Shown in pieces: positions 6,027-11,807 of a DNA stretch of 64,000 bases; position 1 is the first letter of the stretch, and each line of letters starts with the position of its first letter. The stretch spans positions 126,285 through 190,284 of IMG/VR virus record IMGVR_UViG_3300027815_000003. One strand, given 5' to 3'. Under the pieces are notes generated by a model. It saw only the letters and a program-made list of their open reading frames with translations. It ran no database searches and had not been told where the DNA came from. This stretch comes from a virus. The position numbers and the translations under genes are program-made.

Positions 6027-7621
6027 TTATTTTTTCTATAATAATTTTATTCGAACCGCAAAAAGAGCAATATTCGGGGAACATATATAAAAACTTTAAA
6101 AGTAACCCAGGTTTATGAACAATAAATTCTTTATTACAGTTATTGCATAATATTGCCCATTTTATCTCACCAATTGGGAAATTTATACTCCATAATTTCA
6201 TGTTAGCTTTCCTTTCTTTTATTTTTATATTCTTCAAGAGATGGGAATCCAGCTAATTCTGAACCATATAAAATAAAAGCGTATTGATATTTCTTTTTTG
6301 CCTCTTCGTATCGTTCTCTCAATTTTTCATTATAATCATCTTTTACCCAATGATAATTGGAACAACTACAGTTTTTATAATTTCCTAAAATATCAAATGT
6401 CCCACTTTGTAATAAAATCTGCAATACCATTTGTGTCTCTTTATGAATAGAAAAACATTTTTCTCTTAAACTGTTTGATATTTCTTCATCTGTATTAATC
6501 TCCCATCCTAAAATTTCATATATGTCTATCGCCACAGATGAATTACCATAAGGTCTTTTTGGGTCTATTTCTGGCGCTCCATATTCAGAATCTTGCCATC
6601 CGACATACATTCTTTTTAGTAATTTTAGATGATCTTCTGTAATTGTAAATTTCTTTATCTTTAGACAAGTACATTTATTGGTCATTCCAATATCCCTGTC
6701 CCTGCCCATATTTTTCTATGTCTTTCTTCTAAATTTTTTTCAAAGTTTATACATGCCTTTTCTAATGTTTCCCCTTCACCAGATATCCTACAGTCATAAT
6801 CTGTTATTAATACTCCTCCATCCTCAGAGGAAATAAAAATAAGTTGTGTATCTGCATCTTCCCAATAAGTATGTTTACTAAGCCATTGTTCAAAATTAAA
6901 TTTGTCCATTATATTATCTTTCTTTCCATTCTTCTATTTCTTTATCTGTTGCCCACCTATGAATTGTTGCACCAATTCCCCATCCCTTGTTAGTCGGGAA
7001 AATCATTAGTTGATATACTTTTATATATTTATCAAAAAATGGGAAAAGAACTGGTTTGCCAATTAGTCTTGCTAATATCCATAAAAATCCTACTGAAAGA
7101 GAGAACAATAAAAGTATTCCACCTAAAATAGAGAATGTCCATATTAAACCATATCCTAATATGTAAGCTAAATCGTTCATTATATTTCTAATTTTCTCCT
7201 TGTTTCACCAATTCCAAAAGTATTTACAAACTCTTCATAAGTTATTTCTTTATTTTTTATTATTTTTTCTTATAAATTCTTTTGCTTCTTTTTTGTTCAT
7301 TCCCGATACTAAACAACTAAAAAAGATATCATTATATAAAGATAATTGCCATATTTTCATCCAGGGGACACCTTTCCCACTTTTTATTTCTTTTTCAATA
7401 TTTCTATATTCTTCTCCACTATCTATTTTTTCTATAATATGTAATGGTGGAGCAAAATTAAGTTGAAATTTTGCTAATTCCTTTTGATTATTTTTATAGC
7501 ATTCATCACGTTTTATAGCTTCATCTGCTGTATTAAATAATTGTCCATCTATACTTTGGAAATATGTTTTCTCTTTTTCTTCATAAATCGGAATTTTTTC
7601 TTTTACTACAATTTCTTTCAT
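6019..7621 (-). other. block of small hypothetical CDS (6019-6237, 6203-6709, 6682-6909, 6914-7180, 7250-7621)
   Basis: Overlapping start/stop packing in the ORF track. Confidence 0.7.
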
Positions 7622-8415
7622 TATATATTTATCTTTCTTTTTGTCTCTCCAATACCAAAAGCATTGATAAATTCTTCATAGGTTATTTCTTTTTCTTTTC
7701 CATTACTTATATATTTTACATATTTAATAACAATATTTTTATCTACTTTATAAAAAACATCTATTACTTTTATCGCAGTATTAATAGAAGTAAATATATT
7801 ATCTTGTAAAGCCTTTTTTAATACTAATACTTCTTCATCTAGTTTTTCGTAATCAATATCAGTTTTTGGTGTCTCGTTATATACTCCCCCATTTTCGTCT
7901 TTTAGTAGTGTTTCTGATAAAGAAGATAATTTTTGTCCGAATTCGTCTTCTTTTTGTTGTGCAACTCTTTTCGGTACTACAATTTGTTTTTGATATTTTT
8001 CTGGTTCAATTTGTTGTGGGAAATAGATATTACCAGATGCATCTTTTTTATAAACAGAGGAAATAACCATCTCTTTTAACTCTTCTTTTGTATATTCCCC
8101 TTTTATTATTTCTTGGTCTTTAGTAGACATCATTTCTTTCATTTTATCCTTACCGTATATTTCTCCTAAAGCCCAGAATACTTTTGCCTGTGTATCAAAA
8201 AATATGTTAGTGGGTAACTGATCTGAAAAGAGATTTTCTAAATAAGTATAATCATTTTCTAGTTTTTTTACTTTATAATAAAATTCTTCATTTACATCTT
8301 GTAATGAAAGGAAATAAAGCTGATTATAGAAATTTTCTGCATCTTTGGCTAATTTCTTTTCTTCTTCTGTTCTTTCACGTTCTAATAAAAATTTTTCTAT
8401 GCTTTGTATCCGCAT
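7621..8415 (-). CDS. hypothetical protein whose N-terminus (MRIQS) is supplied by the TnpB element left end
   Basis: ATG at 8415. A matching orphan start MKIQS lies at 9812 on the far side of the element. Confidence 0.7.
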   Translation of the reverse strand: MRIQSIEKFLLERERTEEEKKLAKDAENFYNQLYFLSLQDVNEEFYYKVKKLENDYTYLENLFSDQLPTNIFFDTQAKVFWALGEIYGKDKMKEMMSTKDQEIIKGEYTKEELKEMVISSVYKKDASGNIYFPQQIEPEKYQKQIVVPKRVAQQKEDEFGQKLSSLSETLLKDENGGVYNETPKTDIDYEKLDEEVLVLKKALQDNIFTSINTAIKVIDVFYKVDKNIVIKYVKYISNGKEKEITYEEFINAFGIGETKRKINI

Positions 8416-8445
8416 GTAACTAACCATCCTCTCTAAACTATTACC

Positions 8446-8474
8446 ATTATACAATATCTTATCTCTCTTGTCAA
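8446..8474 (-). promoter_or_regulatory. outward-facing consensus promoter in the element left end
   Basis: TTGACA (8474-8469)-17 bp-TATAAT (8451-8446). Confidence 0.85.
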
Positions 8475-8541
8475 GTATCTTTTAAACTCGTTTAAACTGG
8501 TTTACTTTTCCAAATTTGTATCTATTTTTCTTAGCAAAAAA

Positions 8542-8570
8542 TAGACAATTTTCTAAAAGTGTGATATAAT
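8542..8570 (+). promoter_or_regulatory. tnpB promoter
   Basis: TAGACA-17 bp-TATAAT with extended -10 TG; the -10 ends 15 nt upstream of the ATG. Confidence 0.75.
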
Positions 8571-8585
8571 ATAAACATAAAGAAA

Positions 8586-9719
8586 ATGATATACAAATCT
8601 TACAAATATAGATTATATCCAACCAATGACCAGAAAGTTTTATTAGAAAAACATTTTGGAGCAACTAGATTTGTTTTTAACTGGGCTTTGGAAAGTAAAA
8701 TTAAGTTTTATAAAGAAACTGGAAAAGGAATTTCTAAATTCTCACTTAATAAAGAATTAACTTCTTTTAAAAAACAAGAAGAATATAATTGGCTTTATGA
8801 AGTAAATGCACAATCATTGCAAGAATCTATAACTAATTTAGATTCTGCTTATACCAATTTCTTTAGAAAGCAAAGCAAATTTCCAAAATTTAAATCTAAA
8901 AATAACAATCATCAATCTTTTTCTTGCCCACAAAACAATAAAGTCAATTTTGACAAATCTTTACTTTTTATTCCAAAGTTCAAAGAAGGAATTAAAATAA
9001 AAATTGATAGAACTTTTATTGGTAAAATAAAAACCGTTACCATTTCCAGAACTCCGACAAATAAATATTTTGCATCCATTTTAGTAGAAACCCCAGAAAA
9101 TTTACCAGTTAAACCAGAACTTAATATTGAAAAGGCAGTTGGTTTAGATTTGGGATTAAAATCTTTTATAACACTTTCCGATGGTCAAAAATTTGATAAT
9201 CCAAAATTTATTAAGAAATCGACCAAAAAATTAATTAGACAATTCAGAAAATTTTCTCATAAAAAGAGAGGATCAAATAATAAATCAAAACAAAGAATAA
9301 AACTAGCCAGGCTTTATGAAAAAATAACCAACCAAAGAAATGATTTCTTACAAAAACTTTCTACAAAGTTAATCAAAGAGAGCCAATTTGAAACATTTTG
9401 TATTGAAAATCTTAATATTTCTGGAATGGTCAAAAATCATAGCTTGGCAAAAGCAATTTCTGACTCTGGTTGGGCTACATTTATTAAGTTTTTAACATAC
9501 AAATCTAATTGGTATGGGAAAAATATTATCCAGATTGGTAGATTTGAACCCAGTTCAAAGGTTTGTAACGAATGTGGAACCATAAATCAGAAACTTACAC
9601 TTTCAGATAGAACTTGGACTTGTCCATGCGGTGCAATCTTAGATAGGGACATTAATGCAGCCAAGAATATAAAGGACTTTGCTTTTTTCCCACAAAACTT
9701 GCTTCCAAAAATAGGCTAG
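8586..9719 (+). CDS. tnpB: RNA-guided endonuclease TnpB
   Basis: YKYRLYPT N-terminal HTH, RuvC-I GLDLGLK, RuvC-II IENLNI, zinc finger CNECG..CPCG, RuvC-III DRDINAAKNI. Confidence 0.95.
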   Translation: MIYKSYKYRLYPTNDQKVLLEKHFGATRFVFNWALESKIKFYKETGKGISKFSLNKELTSFKKQEEYNWLYEVNAQSLQESITNLDSAYTNFFRKQSKFPKFKSKNNNHQSFSCPQNNKVNFDKSLLFIPKFKEGIKIKIDRTFIGKIKTVTISRTPTNKYFASILVETPENLPVKPELNIEKAVGLDLGLKSFITLSDGQKFDNPKFIKKSTKKLIRQFRKFSHKKRGSNNKSKQRIKLARLYEKITNQRNDFLQKLSTKLIKESQFETFCIENLNISGMVKNHSLAKAISDSGWATFIKFLTYKSNWYGKNIIQIGRFEPSSKVCNECGTINQKLTLSDRTWTCPCGAILDRDINAAKNIKDFAFFPQNLLPKIG

Positions 9720-9812
9720 GGTATAGCCGAATTCACGCTTCTGTAGATTCCCAATAGGGGATCGTTGAAAGAAGAACTAGCAAAAGCTAGATACCATGCT
9801 TTGTATTTTCAT
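9650..9812 (+). ncRNA. putative TnpB omega/reRNA with 3' guide (5' boundary approximate)
   Basis: Hairpins GATTCCC-AATA-GGGGATC (9746-9763) and CTAGC-AAAA-GCTAG (9777-9790) just after tnpB. Position is typical of omegaRNA. Confidence 0.55.
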
Positions 9813-10152
9813 TTTAATAATCTTTCTTTATTCTTTCTATTCCTGCAGACTCTCTAAGTTTGCTAACTGCAAATTGTTCATCTTCTCATTTGCATAATAT
9901 GTCTGTCATATTATTATAATCTTCTGTCTGCAGTATTTTATGTTTATTATTTTTTAAGATATCTAAAATTACTCTAAATATATTTTTATATTGCAAAAAT
10001 TATCTCCAATTACAGGGGAGAAACCGTAAATATATTATATATCTTCTACTCTACCCTTTATATTTATTTTATTTTCTCTCAATTCGTTCCCCATAATAAT
10101 AACAATTTCTCCCTTTCTGGGAATTGGACAGCCTTCAAACTGTAATTGCCTA

Positions 10153-10842
10153 TCATTTTGAATAAATGTAACGGTTGTTTTCATATTGCTTTTCTTTCAA
10201 TTTATTCTTTATTAGTTTTTGTCCAGTCCAATGTATTACAGTATCATTTATTTTGTCTCTAAATTCTTCTCTGACATATTTACAGACACTTTCATTATAC
10301 TCCGAAAATGGGATTTTGTCAAGTATTCGTAACACAAATCCCTCTACCAAATCTCTGTTGTAAAATTCAAGATATTTTAGTTCATTTAATCTTTTTTCGT
10401 CCCATTTTCCCATATATAAAGTTGGCACTAATTCAAAATTATTTTCTTGACAAAATTGCATTGTATCTGTCCAAAATAAACATATATTATTTTCGTCCCA
10501 AATTGAATGAACATAAAAATATGATTTTAGATTTTGATAATAAATAGTATGTTTTGCAAATAAATTTTCCCCACAAATTCTCCATCCATCTGGGATTTTA
10601 TGTTTAATAGTTTGATGATATGCTTTGGCCCAATCGTGGGAAGGATGAGATAAACTACTATTTATAGAACGAGAATGGCAATAGTTATTATAAAATGTCC
10701 AGTTTTCCCCATCAAGTTTTAAACTGATAACTATATCTTTATTTTTAAATTGAACCAGGGATTTCATTGTTTTGTCATCTGATGAAATCCCTAAAGAATC
10801 TGGAATATGATAAATTCTAGGATGTTTTACATAGATATTCAT
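10153..10842 (-). CDS. second RNA ligase-family nucleotidyltransferase
   Basis: KLDGEN, ICGENL, VEGFVLR and KYVR. Confidence 0.8.
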   Translation of the reverse strand: MNIYVKHPRIYHIPDSLGISSDDKTMKSLVQFKNKDIVISLKLDGENWTFYNNYCHSRSINSSLSHPSHDWAKAYHQTIKHKIPDGWRICGENLFAKHTIYYQNLKSYFYVHSIWDENNICLFWTDTMQFCQENNFELVPTLYMGKWDEKRLNELKYLEFYNRDLVEGFVLRILDKIPFSEYNESVCKYVREEFRDKINDTVIHWTGQKLIKNKLKEKQYENNRYIYSK

Positions 10843-10843
10843 A

Positions 10844-11807
10844 TTAAATTTTATTCTTTATTTCACACTCTTCACAAATACTATCTTTATTAAAATTTAC
10901 TGGTATATCTTTTTTACAAAACTTACATACATCACAGATACCAATAGTTTTTAAGCATTTATTAATTTCATTTTTATTTAACATTTCTAAATAAATTTTG
11001 CTTATGTCGGCATGAGTTAATACTTCCCATATTATTTCTGGTCTACTATCCCCAAAATCGTTTATATAATAATATAGCGCAACTGGAAATTCTTTTATCT
11101 TGTCTATAAAAGAAAATTGAGACAAATATTTCGTATTATATTCTCTGATATAATTTTCCAATTCTATTAGTTCTTCTTTTGATTTTATGATATACCAATC
11201 TTTTGTCCAATCTTCTATATCTTTTGTCGTAACAACTTTGAATTTATTATATTCTTCTTCTTTCCTATCAAGATAATTTTGATGTTTTTCTGCATCAGAT
11301 TTATTTTCAAATTCGCTATTGTCTGTTGTTACAAAAATAGGAATCTCTTCTTTATGTAATTTACCTACATAATATTCTCTGGTTTTTGTTTTTTCTGTTA
11401 TTTTATTCATGTTTATCTTTATTATTTGTCATTTTATATTTGTTAATTTCTTCTTCTAAAATTTTAGCCCAACTATTTTTAATTTCATATTGTTGTTCTG
11501 TGTCTATAGATTCCCATTCATCACCAAAACCTTTTCTTCCTTTTATATCATAAACAATTTTGTCAATTATTGTATGATATAATTCATATTTATTATATTC
11601 TTCCCAAAATTCATTATGGCAGCAACATTTACATGATTCTGCTAAACATAACTCAAACAAATCTTCCGCATTGCATTTTAAACAATATGCACCAGGCCAT
11701 CCAGACCACCAATGCTTATTTTTTGATTCATCGTATAAAGAAAAATTAGCAGGACAGTCAACAGTCCCCCCGACATAACAACCTGGAATATGTTCTTTTG
11801 AATTCAT
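10844..11807 (-). other. two hypothetical CDS (10844-11410, 11403-11807)
   Basis: ORF track. Confidence 0.7.

What the first reader, a model, noticed from the sequence alone, without database searches (positions are those of the whole stretch)
8399..9816. Solo TnpB insertion that rebuilds the gene it splits and recodes its own target: possible RNA-guided homing element
Seen: the upstream gene's TAA (9816-9814) is followed by an orphan start ATG AAA ATA CAA AGC AT (MKIQS, 9812). On the other side of the element the gene resumes as ATG CGG ATA CAA AGC ATA (MRIQSI, 8415) behind a consensus promoter and RBS carried in the element's left end. The 11-bp repeat ATGCTTTGTAT is in the same frame at both ends. 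IS200/IS605 elements do not normally make target duplications. The predicted guide (right flank ATGCTTTGTATTTTCAT) would match an empty allele fully but the occupied allele for only 11 nt before mismatches. Inference: a transposase-free element spreading by cutting empty alleles in co-infecting phages, like free-standing homing endonucleases, while keeping the operon expressed.
Basis: partly seen in the sequence, partly recalled or inferred. Interest (0 to 1): 0.75.

Follow-up and report, generated by a model that had tools for sequence, protein, structure and literature searches.

The report
Gene-patching TnpB homing cassette in phage
A 1.4-kb RNA-guided nuclease cassette (tnpB plus its guide RNA, no transposase) sits in the first codons of a gene of an uncultured 190-kb groundwater phage and supplies a new promoter and start codon for that gene; near-identical wild phages carry exactly the uninterrupted site its guide matches, which is the layout of a natural "cut the empty copy and copy yourself in" element, though cutting was not tested.

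Summary
A 1,397-bp insert (tnpB 8586-9719, + strand) lies antisense in a minus-strand operon. It is flanked by an exact 11-bp direct repeat (8399-8409, 9796-9806). An orphan MKIQS start remains on the right. On the left a new ATG-CGG start sits behind a perfect outward sigma-70 promoter and an RBS.

The predicted empty allele exists. One short contig in each of two other groundwater metagenomes joins 8398 directly to 9796. Three more distant relatives start the gene with MKIQSIEKF and have no tnpB or promoter there.

A tnpB-less copy of the guide-RNA scaffold elsewhere in the genome stops matching at 9795-9797. TnpB keeps its RuvC triad. The phage record has no TnpA, and the insert lacks the left-end hairpin seen in relatives.

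Best reading: an IS1341-like, left-end-less TnpB-omegaRNA cassette that persists or spreads by RNA-guided cleavage of empty alleles in co-infection, while patching the gene it splits. Cleavage, the TAM and homing are untested, and the origin of the 11-bp repeat is unresolved.

This scan has noted the same architecture on other phage DNA. In the held literature I found only a theoretical statement of phage-to-phage TnpB homing.

The parts
8399..8409 (+). Left copy of the exact 11-bp direct repeat. On the minus strand it forms codons 3-6 (I Q S I) of the rebuilt gene. It also equals the TAM-proximal 11 nt of the predicted target.
   Evidence: family D1.
8410..8415 (-). New start ATG plus CGG (Arg), replacing the ancestral ATG AAA (Lys). 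All three bases of codon 2 are changed.
   Evidence: CGG makes up 2% of Arg codons, 0.83 per 1000 codons, and is never codon 2 in 101 long ORFs.
8424..8433 (-). Purine-rich ribosome-binding site, 8-11 nt upstream of the new ATG.
   Evidence: Read.
8446..8474 (-). Outward-facing sigma-70 promoter, TTGACA-17-TATAAT, 12 of 12 positions, aimed at the rebuilt gene.
   Evidence: There are 15 such perfect sites in 190 kb against about 0.7 expected from my composition estimate.
8521..8545 (.). AT-rich 9-bp inverted repeat next to a third TTTGTAT (8515). Possibly a remnant of a left-end hairpin; weak evidence.
   Evidence: and sequence reading.
8542..8570 (+). tnpB promoter (11 of 12 positions, extended TG -10). 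Its -10 region is the type repeated at many promoters of this phage.
8586..9719 (+). tnpB, 377 aa, with RuvC D188/E274/D355 and the zinc-finger cysteines present.
   Evidence: ISDra2 TnpB 8H1J/8BF8, E about 6e-75; invariant columns.
9707..9795 (+). 3' part of the omegaRNA scaffold, with hairpins at 9714-9728, 9746-9763 and 9777-9790. The scaffold probably starts further upstream, inside tnpB.
   Evidence: A second copy in the genome is 87% identical. Compensatory pairs were seen, and a GGC/GCC -> TCG/CGA swap occurs in related metagenome contigs (table 3).
9796..9815 (+). Predicted guide template: the right copy of the repeat, the ancestral start codon, and the stop codon of the upstream gene.
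   Evidence: Homology with the second scaffold copy ends at 9795-9797. By family rule the guide is the flank next to the right end (PMC10055086).
9777..9812 (-). Orphan start of the split gene (MKIQS plus 6 junk codons and a stop inside the right end).
   Evidence: Homologues start with MKIQSIEKF.
7621..8415 (-). Rebuilt gene (264 aa, function unknown, no Pfam or PHROG match), first gene of the downstream minus-strand run.
9714..9790 (-). On the host-gene strand, two of the scaffold hairpins read as terminator-like sites (5-bp stems followed by T runs).

Best explanation
This is an IS1341-like (TnpB-only) TnpB-omegaRNA cassette that has lost the transposase-type left end. It behaves like a free-standing homing endonuclease gene of phages.

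The insertion is the derived state. It sits in the first six codons of a phage gene, antisense to the operon.

Inferred working:
- tnpB is transcribed from a phage-type promoter.
- The omegaRNA scaffold ends at about 9795, and the guide is read from the right flank, which is the ancestral gene start.
- In a cell co-infected by a cassette-less relative, the RNP finds a TAM (candidates TTTCT or TCTAT) followed by a full match and cuts there.
- Phage recombination repairs the break from the cassette-bearing genome, copying the cassette in or at least excluding that marker.

The carrier is protected twice. The right junction has scaffold sequence where the TAM should be. The left junction keeps the TAM but matches the guide for only 11 nt before a three-base mismatch made by the Lys-to-Arg recoding.

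The cost to the phage is offset by an outward consensus promoter, an RBS and a new ATG-CGG in the left end. These restart transcription and translation of the split gene and the genes behind it, while the scaffold hairpins probably stop incoming operon transcripts.

Shown here: the anatomy, the polymorphism, the border, the intact catalytic motifs and the absence of TnpA. Inferred: expression, the TAM, cleavage and homing.
For: - Insert and repeat.
- Empty allele in near-identical phages: joint 8398->9796, skipping 1,397 bp with 11 letters fitting both sides. It appears in one contig each of runs X3 (2022) and X4 (2024), which come from different studies. Their flanks are about 97-98% identical to the window.
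- Ancestral state: homologues at 61-67% identity in syntenic loci L003, L004 and L089 all begin MKIQSIEKF directly after the upstream gene, with no tnpB and no promoter.
- Border: a second scaffold copy (L002) is 87% identical over 9707-9797 and unrelated beyond. Its hairpin is kept by compensatory changes.
- Nuclease: Pfam domains and alignment to ISDra2 TnpB, with D188/E274/D355 and the zinc-finger cysteines conserved.
- No Y1 transposase and no second tnpB in the 94%-complete record.
- Relatives carry a left-end hairpin that resembles their right-end hairpin; this insert does not.
- Perfect outward promoter and tnpB promoter. The tnpB -10 region is shared with phage promoters.
- CGG is the rarest Arg codon.
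- The carrier genome holds no other full match to the guide.
- Logic check: if the guide began more than about 5 nt into the repeat, the right junction would carry the same TAM as the empty site and would be self-cut. This independently favours the border at 9795-9797.
- Literature: the donor joint is the TAM abutting the right-end flank, and TnpB cleaves it (PMC10055086). TnpA-independent 'non-restorative homing' into co-resident plasmids or phages is proposed in PMC13565253.
Against: - No cleavage, TAM, RNA-end or homing data exist for this element.
- The closest TnpB in 5.8 billion proteins is only 60% identical, so nothing can be transferred from a characterised orthologue.
- The two empty-allele contigs are short (249 and 163 nt) and low depth (2.9 and 3.8). 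One has only 30 nt on one side, and reads were laid at an 80% likeness threshold.
- The polymorphism alone does not give direction: precise deletion across the 11-bp repeat would also produce the empty allele.
- IS200/IS605 elements make no target duplication, and ordinary homing does not create one, so the repeat is unexplained.
- A host-encoded TnpA acting in trans cannot be excluded, because the host is unknown.
- The left-end module has no homologue anywhere I looked, so whether the cassette brought it or acquired it after insertion is open.
Confidence: 0.6

Rival explanations
1. Passive, dead-end IS1341-type insertion. The element arrived from the host by TnpA supplied in trans (or by illegitimate recombination). 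It does not home, and the promoter and start patch is a later compensatory repair selected because the split gene matters.
For: TnpB-only IS elements in virulent phages have been known since 2010 (ISCaje1-3, PMC2853527). The element's G+C (0.286) matches the phage (0.30), so long residence is possible. An AT-rich inverted repeat at 8521-8545 next to TTTGTAT could be a relic left end.
Against: The record has no TnpA, and the insert has no left-end hairpin like those of relatives. The nuclease motifs are fully intact and tnpB has a strong promoter. The scaffold is under structural constraint. The flank that templates the guide is exactly the allele present in sister phages. The codon-2 recoding to a very rare codon is hard to explain by repair alone.
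Confidence: 0.2
2. A domesticated weapon and not a selfish element. The phage keeps TnpB to destroy cassette-less competitor genomes in co-infection (exclusion), without the cassette being copied into them.
For: The anatomy is the same as for homing. The guide covers a stop codon, an RBS and a start codon, which a competitor cannot easily change. The review PMC13565253 notes that homing endonuclease genes can kill competitors when sequences are too divergent for conversion.
Against: The empty alleles found are about 97-98% identical in the flanks. That is ample homology for recombinational repair, so cutting would be expected to lead to conversion. The two outcomes are not exclusive.
Confidence: 0.12
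3. The 11-bp repeat is a target-site duplication made by a different (DDE-type) transposition vehicle that carried tnpB as cargo.
For: DDE-associated TnpBs with inverted ends and duplications are reported; this lead comes from scan note e1-5695175, which cites Altae-Tran et al., a paper I did not read. An 11-bp duplication is unusual for IS200/IS605 (PMC13565253).
Against: No terminal inverted repeats appear at any register of the insert ends. Neither the insert nor the phage has a transposase gene. The right end is a typical omegaRNA scaffold running to the very edge of the insert.
Confidence: 0.04

Closest known systems
ISDra2 TnpB-omegaRNA and the TnpB-only IS1341 group of IS200/IS605 (PDB 8H1J, 8BF8/8EXA; PMC10055086)
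   Same: Same domain set. Alignment E is about 6e-75 with the RuvC triad and zinc finger present. The structured RNA overlaps the 3' end of tnpB and runs to the edge of the element. The flank next to the right end equals the sequence of the empty site.
   Different: There is no TnpA partner in the genome and no left-end hairpin. The insert has an 11-bp flank repeat where the family makes none. The right-end tail (terminal hairpin plus ATACC) differs from the GGGTAGTTCAC tail of most relatives. The left end carries an outward promoter-RBS-start module. The TAM is unknown.
TnpB/IscB homing: restorative homing after TnpA excision (PMC10055086) and 'non-restorative' homing into co-resident plasmids or phages (PMC13565253)
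   Same: The nuclease is guided to the transposon-less allele, and repair from the occupied copy restores or spreads the element.
   Different: Here it would operate between co-infecting phage genomes with no transposase at all. The held literature gives this only as a theoretical case plus a plasmid experiment. The gene patch and the retained seed at the left junction are not part of that model.
Free-standing homing endonuclease genes of T-even phages (SegF, SegB, Mob; intronless homing, as reviewed in PMC13565253)
   Same: A nuclease gene is wedged between or into conserved phage genes and is polymorphic among close relatives. It cuts the rival allele, and the carrier is immune through sequence differences at the target.
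   Different: Recognition is by RNA guide and not by protein. Self and non-self are told apart by presence or absence of the insert plus a recoded codon. The element interrupts a gene and rebuilds its start.
IStrons (group I intron plus IS605/IS607 TnpB; PMC10690162)
   Same: A TnpB element that lands inside a gene yet preserves its expression.
   Different: IStrons are co-oriented with the host gene and restore it by RNA splicing. This cassette is antisense and restores the gene with a new promoter and start. No intron was detected (Rfam search).
ISCaje1-3, TnpB-only IS elements in Campylobacter phages CP220 and CPt10 (PMC2853527)
   Same: Solo tnpB elements resident in virulent phage genomes, found at different sites in sister phages.
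   Different: They were described as ordinary IS copies with a short target motif. No gene patching or guide logic was reported.

Membership tests
IS200/IS605 family, TnpB-only (IS1341) group | TnpB protein with HTH, OrfB_IS605 (RuvC) and zinc-ribbon TNB domains and an intact D-E-D triad | tested here: met
   D188, E274, D355; C327/C330/C346/C348.
IS200/IS605 family, TnpB-only (IS1341) group | omegaRNA scaffold overlapping the 3' end of tnpB and ending at the right boundary | tested here: met
   Three hairpins lie in 9714-9790. Compensatory changes appear against the second genomic copy and in related metagenome contigs. Motifs are shared with the scaffolds of relatives L100, L101, L107, L121 and L162. 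No Rfam family matched.
IS200/IS605 family, TnpB-only (IS1341) group | Subterminal left-end hairpin resembling the right-end hairpin (the TnpA substrate) | tested here: not met
   Relatives show it. Here there is only a weak AT-rich inverted repeat at 8521-8545, about 120 nt inside the insert.
IS200/IS605 family, TnpB-only (IS1341) group | No target-site duplication; insertion immediately 3' of a 4-5-nt TAM | tested here: not met
   An exact 11-bp direct repeat flanks the insert. The TAM cannot be read unambiguously; candidates are TTTCT and TCTAT.
IS200/IS605 family, TnpB-only (IS1341) group | A Y1 TnpA available for mobilisation | tested here: not met
   PF01797 is absent from the 190-kb record, with positive controls working. 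The host genome is unknown.
Homing endonuclease-like element (functional class) | Presence/absence polymorphism at one precise site among close relatives | tested here: met
   The occupied allele is in X1 and X2. Exact empty joints are in X3 and X4. Empty ancestral alleles are in L003, L004 and L089.
Homing endonuclease-like element (functional class) | The nuclease's recognition sequence equals the empty allele and is disrupted in the carrier | tested here: inconclusive
   By sequence the guide template equals the empty site, and the carrier junctions lack either the TAM or nt 12-14. The TAM and mismatch tolerance of this TnpB are unknown.
Homing endonuclease-like element (functional class) | Cleavage-dependent copying into the empty allele | not testable with these tools
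   Needs interference and homing assays.

The most novel reading that the evidence does not exclude
Left-end-less TnpB cassettes may be a widespread class of RNA-guided homing ('gene-drive') elements of phages that carry a portable promoter-RBS-start module to rebuild the gene they split. In this one, the TAM plus 11-nt seed kept at the left junction would be a deliberate non-cleaving binding site. TnpB-omegaRNA would dock on the first codons of the rebuilt gene, either to throttle its expression (TldR-like repression) or to mark the junction.
Probability: 0.1. Interest if true: 0.85.

Novelty: new variant of a known kind. Interest (0 to 1): 0.66.

Why it matters
TnpB is the ancestor of Cas12. 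Its demonstrated natural role is to keep IS elements in place after TnpA excision in bacteria. A transposase-free cassette in a lytic-type phage, with occupied and empty alleles both present in nature and a guide that equals the empty allele, would show that the RNA-guided nuclease alone can sustain a mobile element. It would do so in the ecological niche held by protein homing endonucleases.

The built-in promoter and start patch shows how such an element can invade a coding region at low cost. The locus also offers a compact TnpB with a new scaffold type, and a defined natural target and non-target pair for testing seed and TAM rules.

Tried and rejected
- Megablast of 7600-10900 against GenBank phages: no match.
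- Rfam on 7000-11000 and on L002: nothing relevant.
- Relatives of the split gene in viral contigs: none. Exact empty-site pattern in viral contigs: none.
- A 17-nt scaffold motif in viral contigs gave 33 hits, all chance matches in coding sequence.
- The flank of the second scaffold copy used as a guide query: no match in viral contigs or in the genome.
- No RNA holder is listed for this stretch, so expression could not be examined.
- Extended, re-spelled duplication beyond the 11 nt: 12 of 21 further matches is not significant (390 of 5000 shuffles reach it; 1441 of 5000 without the start codon).
- The left-end module as a copy of other phage DNA or of other cassettes: no homologue.
- Terminal inverted repeats: none.
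- Genome-wide TGA recoding as an explanation for the upstream gene's TGA: rejected. A conserved SECIS-like hairpin after it: not found.
- TAM inference from relatives: the canonical relatives point to a TTTAT-type TAM (GstTnpB2 TAM in PMC10055086). The window's subclade has too few independent insertions to call one.
Full report
**Context.** The window is the last 64 kb of a 190,284-bp IMG/VR virus record (94% complete by CheckV, 30% G+C) from groundwater. Around the finding, all phage genes lie on the minus strand. They include an RNA ligase (10842-10153), a small 60-codon gene (9996-9814), the 264-aa gene at issue (8415-7621), several small genes and a polynucleotide kinase. tnpB (8586-9719) is the only plus-strand gene, so it is antisense to the operon.

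**Observation.**
- The upstream frame ends with TAA at 9816-9814. One base later an ATG (9812) opens MKIQS, which runs into the insert and stops after 11 codons.
- On the other side, ATG-CGG (8415-8410) is followed by the same 11 bases and then the rest of the gene.
- The 11-mer occurs exactly twice in 64 kb, with 0.08 expected, and is in the same codon register in both copies.
- Upstream of the new start lie a purine-rich RBS and a 12-of-12 TTGACA-17-TATAAT promoter pointing out of the insert.
- A second promoter, 11 of 12 with an extended -10, points into tnpB. Its -10 region is the type that recurs at many promoters of this phage.

**Is the empty allele real?** Yes, at two evolutionary distances.
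- Distant relatives: the only homologues of the 264-aa protein among 5.8 billion proteins (61-67% identity) all begin MKIQSIEKF. Their loci (L003, L004, L089) are syntenic with the window. The gene start follows directly after the small upstream gene, with no tnpB and no promoter. The uninterrupted state is therefore ancestral.
- Near-identical phages: I laid the contigs of four groundwater metagenomes on the region. Runs X1 and X2 (probably the source) have the occupied allele. X3 (2022) and X4 (2024), from different studies, each contain one contig that joins 8398 directly to 9796. The joint skips 1,397 bp, and 11 letters fit either side. Their flanks differ from the window by only about 2-3%.
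- Caveats: the contigs are short (249 and 163 nt) and of low depth, and the X4 contig has only 30 nt on one side.
- X3 and X4 also hold contigs 83-93% identical to parts of tnpB and its 3' region, so related cassettes circulate in these communities.

**Where does the guide start?**
- The genome holds a second copy of the last 91 nt of the region downstream of tnpB (L002; 87% identity to 9707-9797). It has no tnpB, and similarity stops abruptly after ...ACC(AT).
- Between the two copies, the hairpin at 9746-9763 is kept by two compensatory and one wobble change, and no pair is broken.
- In the related metagenome contigs, the stem at 9714-9716/9726-9728 changes from GGC/GCC to TCG/CGA.
- This is a constrained RNA whose scaffold ends at 9795-9797. 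The architecture (hairpin, ACGCT-GGAGA motif, hairpin, GAA-rich linker, terminal hairpin, short tail) recurs in the closest viral relatives.
- By the family rule the guide is the flank beyond that edge (PMC10055086), which is the ancestral gene start.
- An independent argument gives the same border. If the guide began more than about 5 nt into the repeat, the right junction would offer the same TAM as the empty site and the carrier would cut itself.

**Self-protection and recoding.**
- The empty site offers TTTCT (or TCTAT) followed by a full match.
- The right junction has scaffold sequence (ATACC or ACCAT) in the TAM position.
- The left junction keeps the TAM but matches for 11 nt only, with mismatches at positions 12-14, 18 and 20.
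- The 12-14 block is codon 2, changed from AAA (Lys) to CGG (Arg). The amino-acid change is conservative, yet it alters all three bases and uses the rarest Arg codon of this AT-rich phage: 2% of Arg codons, 0.83 per 1000, and never codon 2 in 101 long ORFs.
- The carrier genome has no other full target.

**Is it a transposon?**
- TnpB is intact. It aligns with ISDra2 TnpB at E about 6e-75, and D188, E274, D355 and the zinc-finger cysteines fall in invariant columns.
- The record has no Y1 transposase and no other tnpB.
- Relatives at 44-58% identity show a clear left-end hairpin resembling their right-end hairpin after a TTTAT-like motif. This insert does not.
- The insert has no terminal inverted repeats.
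- The closest TnpB anywhere is only 60% identical.
- It is best described as an IS1341-like cassette that has lost the TnpA-type left end.

**How it most likely works.** The steps are set out under Best explanation. In short, the guide RNA directs TnpB to cassette-less genomes in co-infection, and the break is repaired from the carrier, which copies the cassette in or excludes the rival marker. The carrier's two junctions are immune. The outward promoter, RBS and new start keep the split gene and its downstream neighbours expressed. On the host-gene strand the scaffold hairpins look like weak terminators for incoming transcripts. The anatomy and the polymorphism are shown; expression, TAM, cleavage and homing are inferred.

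**What remains unexplained.** The main gap is the origin of the exact 11-bp repeat.
- IS200/IS605 elements make no duplication (PMC13565253), and ordinary homing would not make one.
- Similarity of the left copy to the target beyond 11 nt is not significant.
- The left-end module has no homologue in the phage or in 178 fetched loci.
- Three routes fit:
  - A one-sided repair of a TnpB cut: homologous on the right, end-joined on the left. This would both delete the old left end and leave the TAM-proximal part of the target.
  - Integration of a circular form through the 11-bp homology.
  - Selection on a left-end-borne mimic.
- Precise deletion across the repeat would regenerate the empty allele, which TnpB could then re-convert.

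**Comparison and novelty.**
- Solo tnpB in virulent phages has been known since 2010 (PMC2853527).
- TnpB-driven homing is established in bacteria (PMC10055086).
- Homing into co-resident plasmids or phages without TnpA is stated as a possibility, with a plasmid experiment, in a 2026 review (PMC13565253).
- IStrons preserve the host gene by splicing (PMC10690162).
- In the held literature I found no description of a natural phage cassette with occupied and empty alleles, a guide equal to the empty allele and a built-in promoter-start patch.
- Earlier notes of this scan describe the same architecture in other phages: recoded gene starts or tails beside left-end-less TnpB cassettes. Those notes are unchecked leads, but they suggest a recurring class.
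- I rate this a new variant of a known kind.

Noticed in passing
L002:1501-1591 (-), which is genome 11947-12037; outside the window: A tnpB-less second copy of the last 91 nt of the omegaRNA scaffold, 87% identical, with a hairpin kept by compensatory changes. It lies inside a roughly 0.9-kb non-coding stretch, behind a perfect promoter with a TACGTA-N4-TACGTA box and a 19-codon ORF, and before a terminator. Its flank (the candidate second guide) matches nothing else in the genome or in viral contigs. It could be an orphan guide for the single TnpB or a relic right end.
   Followed up: partly
window 9814-9996 (-): The small gene upstream of the insert has an in-frame TGA (9888-9886) that is conserved in L003/L089 and L004. 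Conservation continues after it in a coding-type pattern (mainly third-position differences). TGA is not recoded genome-wide, and no conserved SECIS-like hairpin follows. Another gene of this phage was flagged earlier in the scan as a possible selenoprotein.
   Followed up: partly
L004:780-1090: In one relative, an extra 97-codon gene sits at the same junction, between the upstream gene's stop and the MKIQS start. It begins with the same nine bases (ATGAAAATA) as the displaced gene. This junction may be a recurrent insertion point.
   Followed up: no
window 8589-9777, in runs X3 and X4: The metagenomes that hold the empty allele also hold contigs 83-93% identical to parts of tnpB and its scaffold. 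One has a different sequence immediately upstream of the tnpB start. Related cassettes are therefore present at other sites or in other phages of the same habitat.
   Followed up: no
window 8515-8545: A third TTTGTAT abuts an AT-rich 9-bp inverted repeat whose loop region weakly resembles the right-end terminal hairpin. It may be a relic of the original left end and its TAM.
   Followed up: partly
L100, L101, L121 (viral contigs; tnpB 51-57% identical): The closest viral relatives are also TnpA-less cassettes without a left-end hairpin, sitting between phage genes behind short promoter-only upstream regions. In L101 an orphan 21-codon ORF with a strong RBS lies just upstream of tnpB.
   Followed up: no
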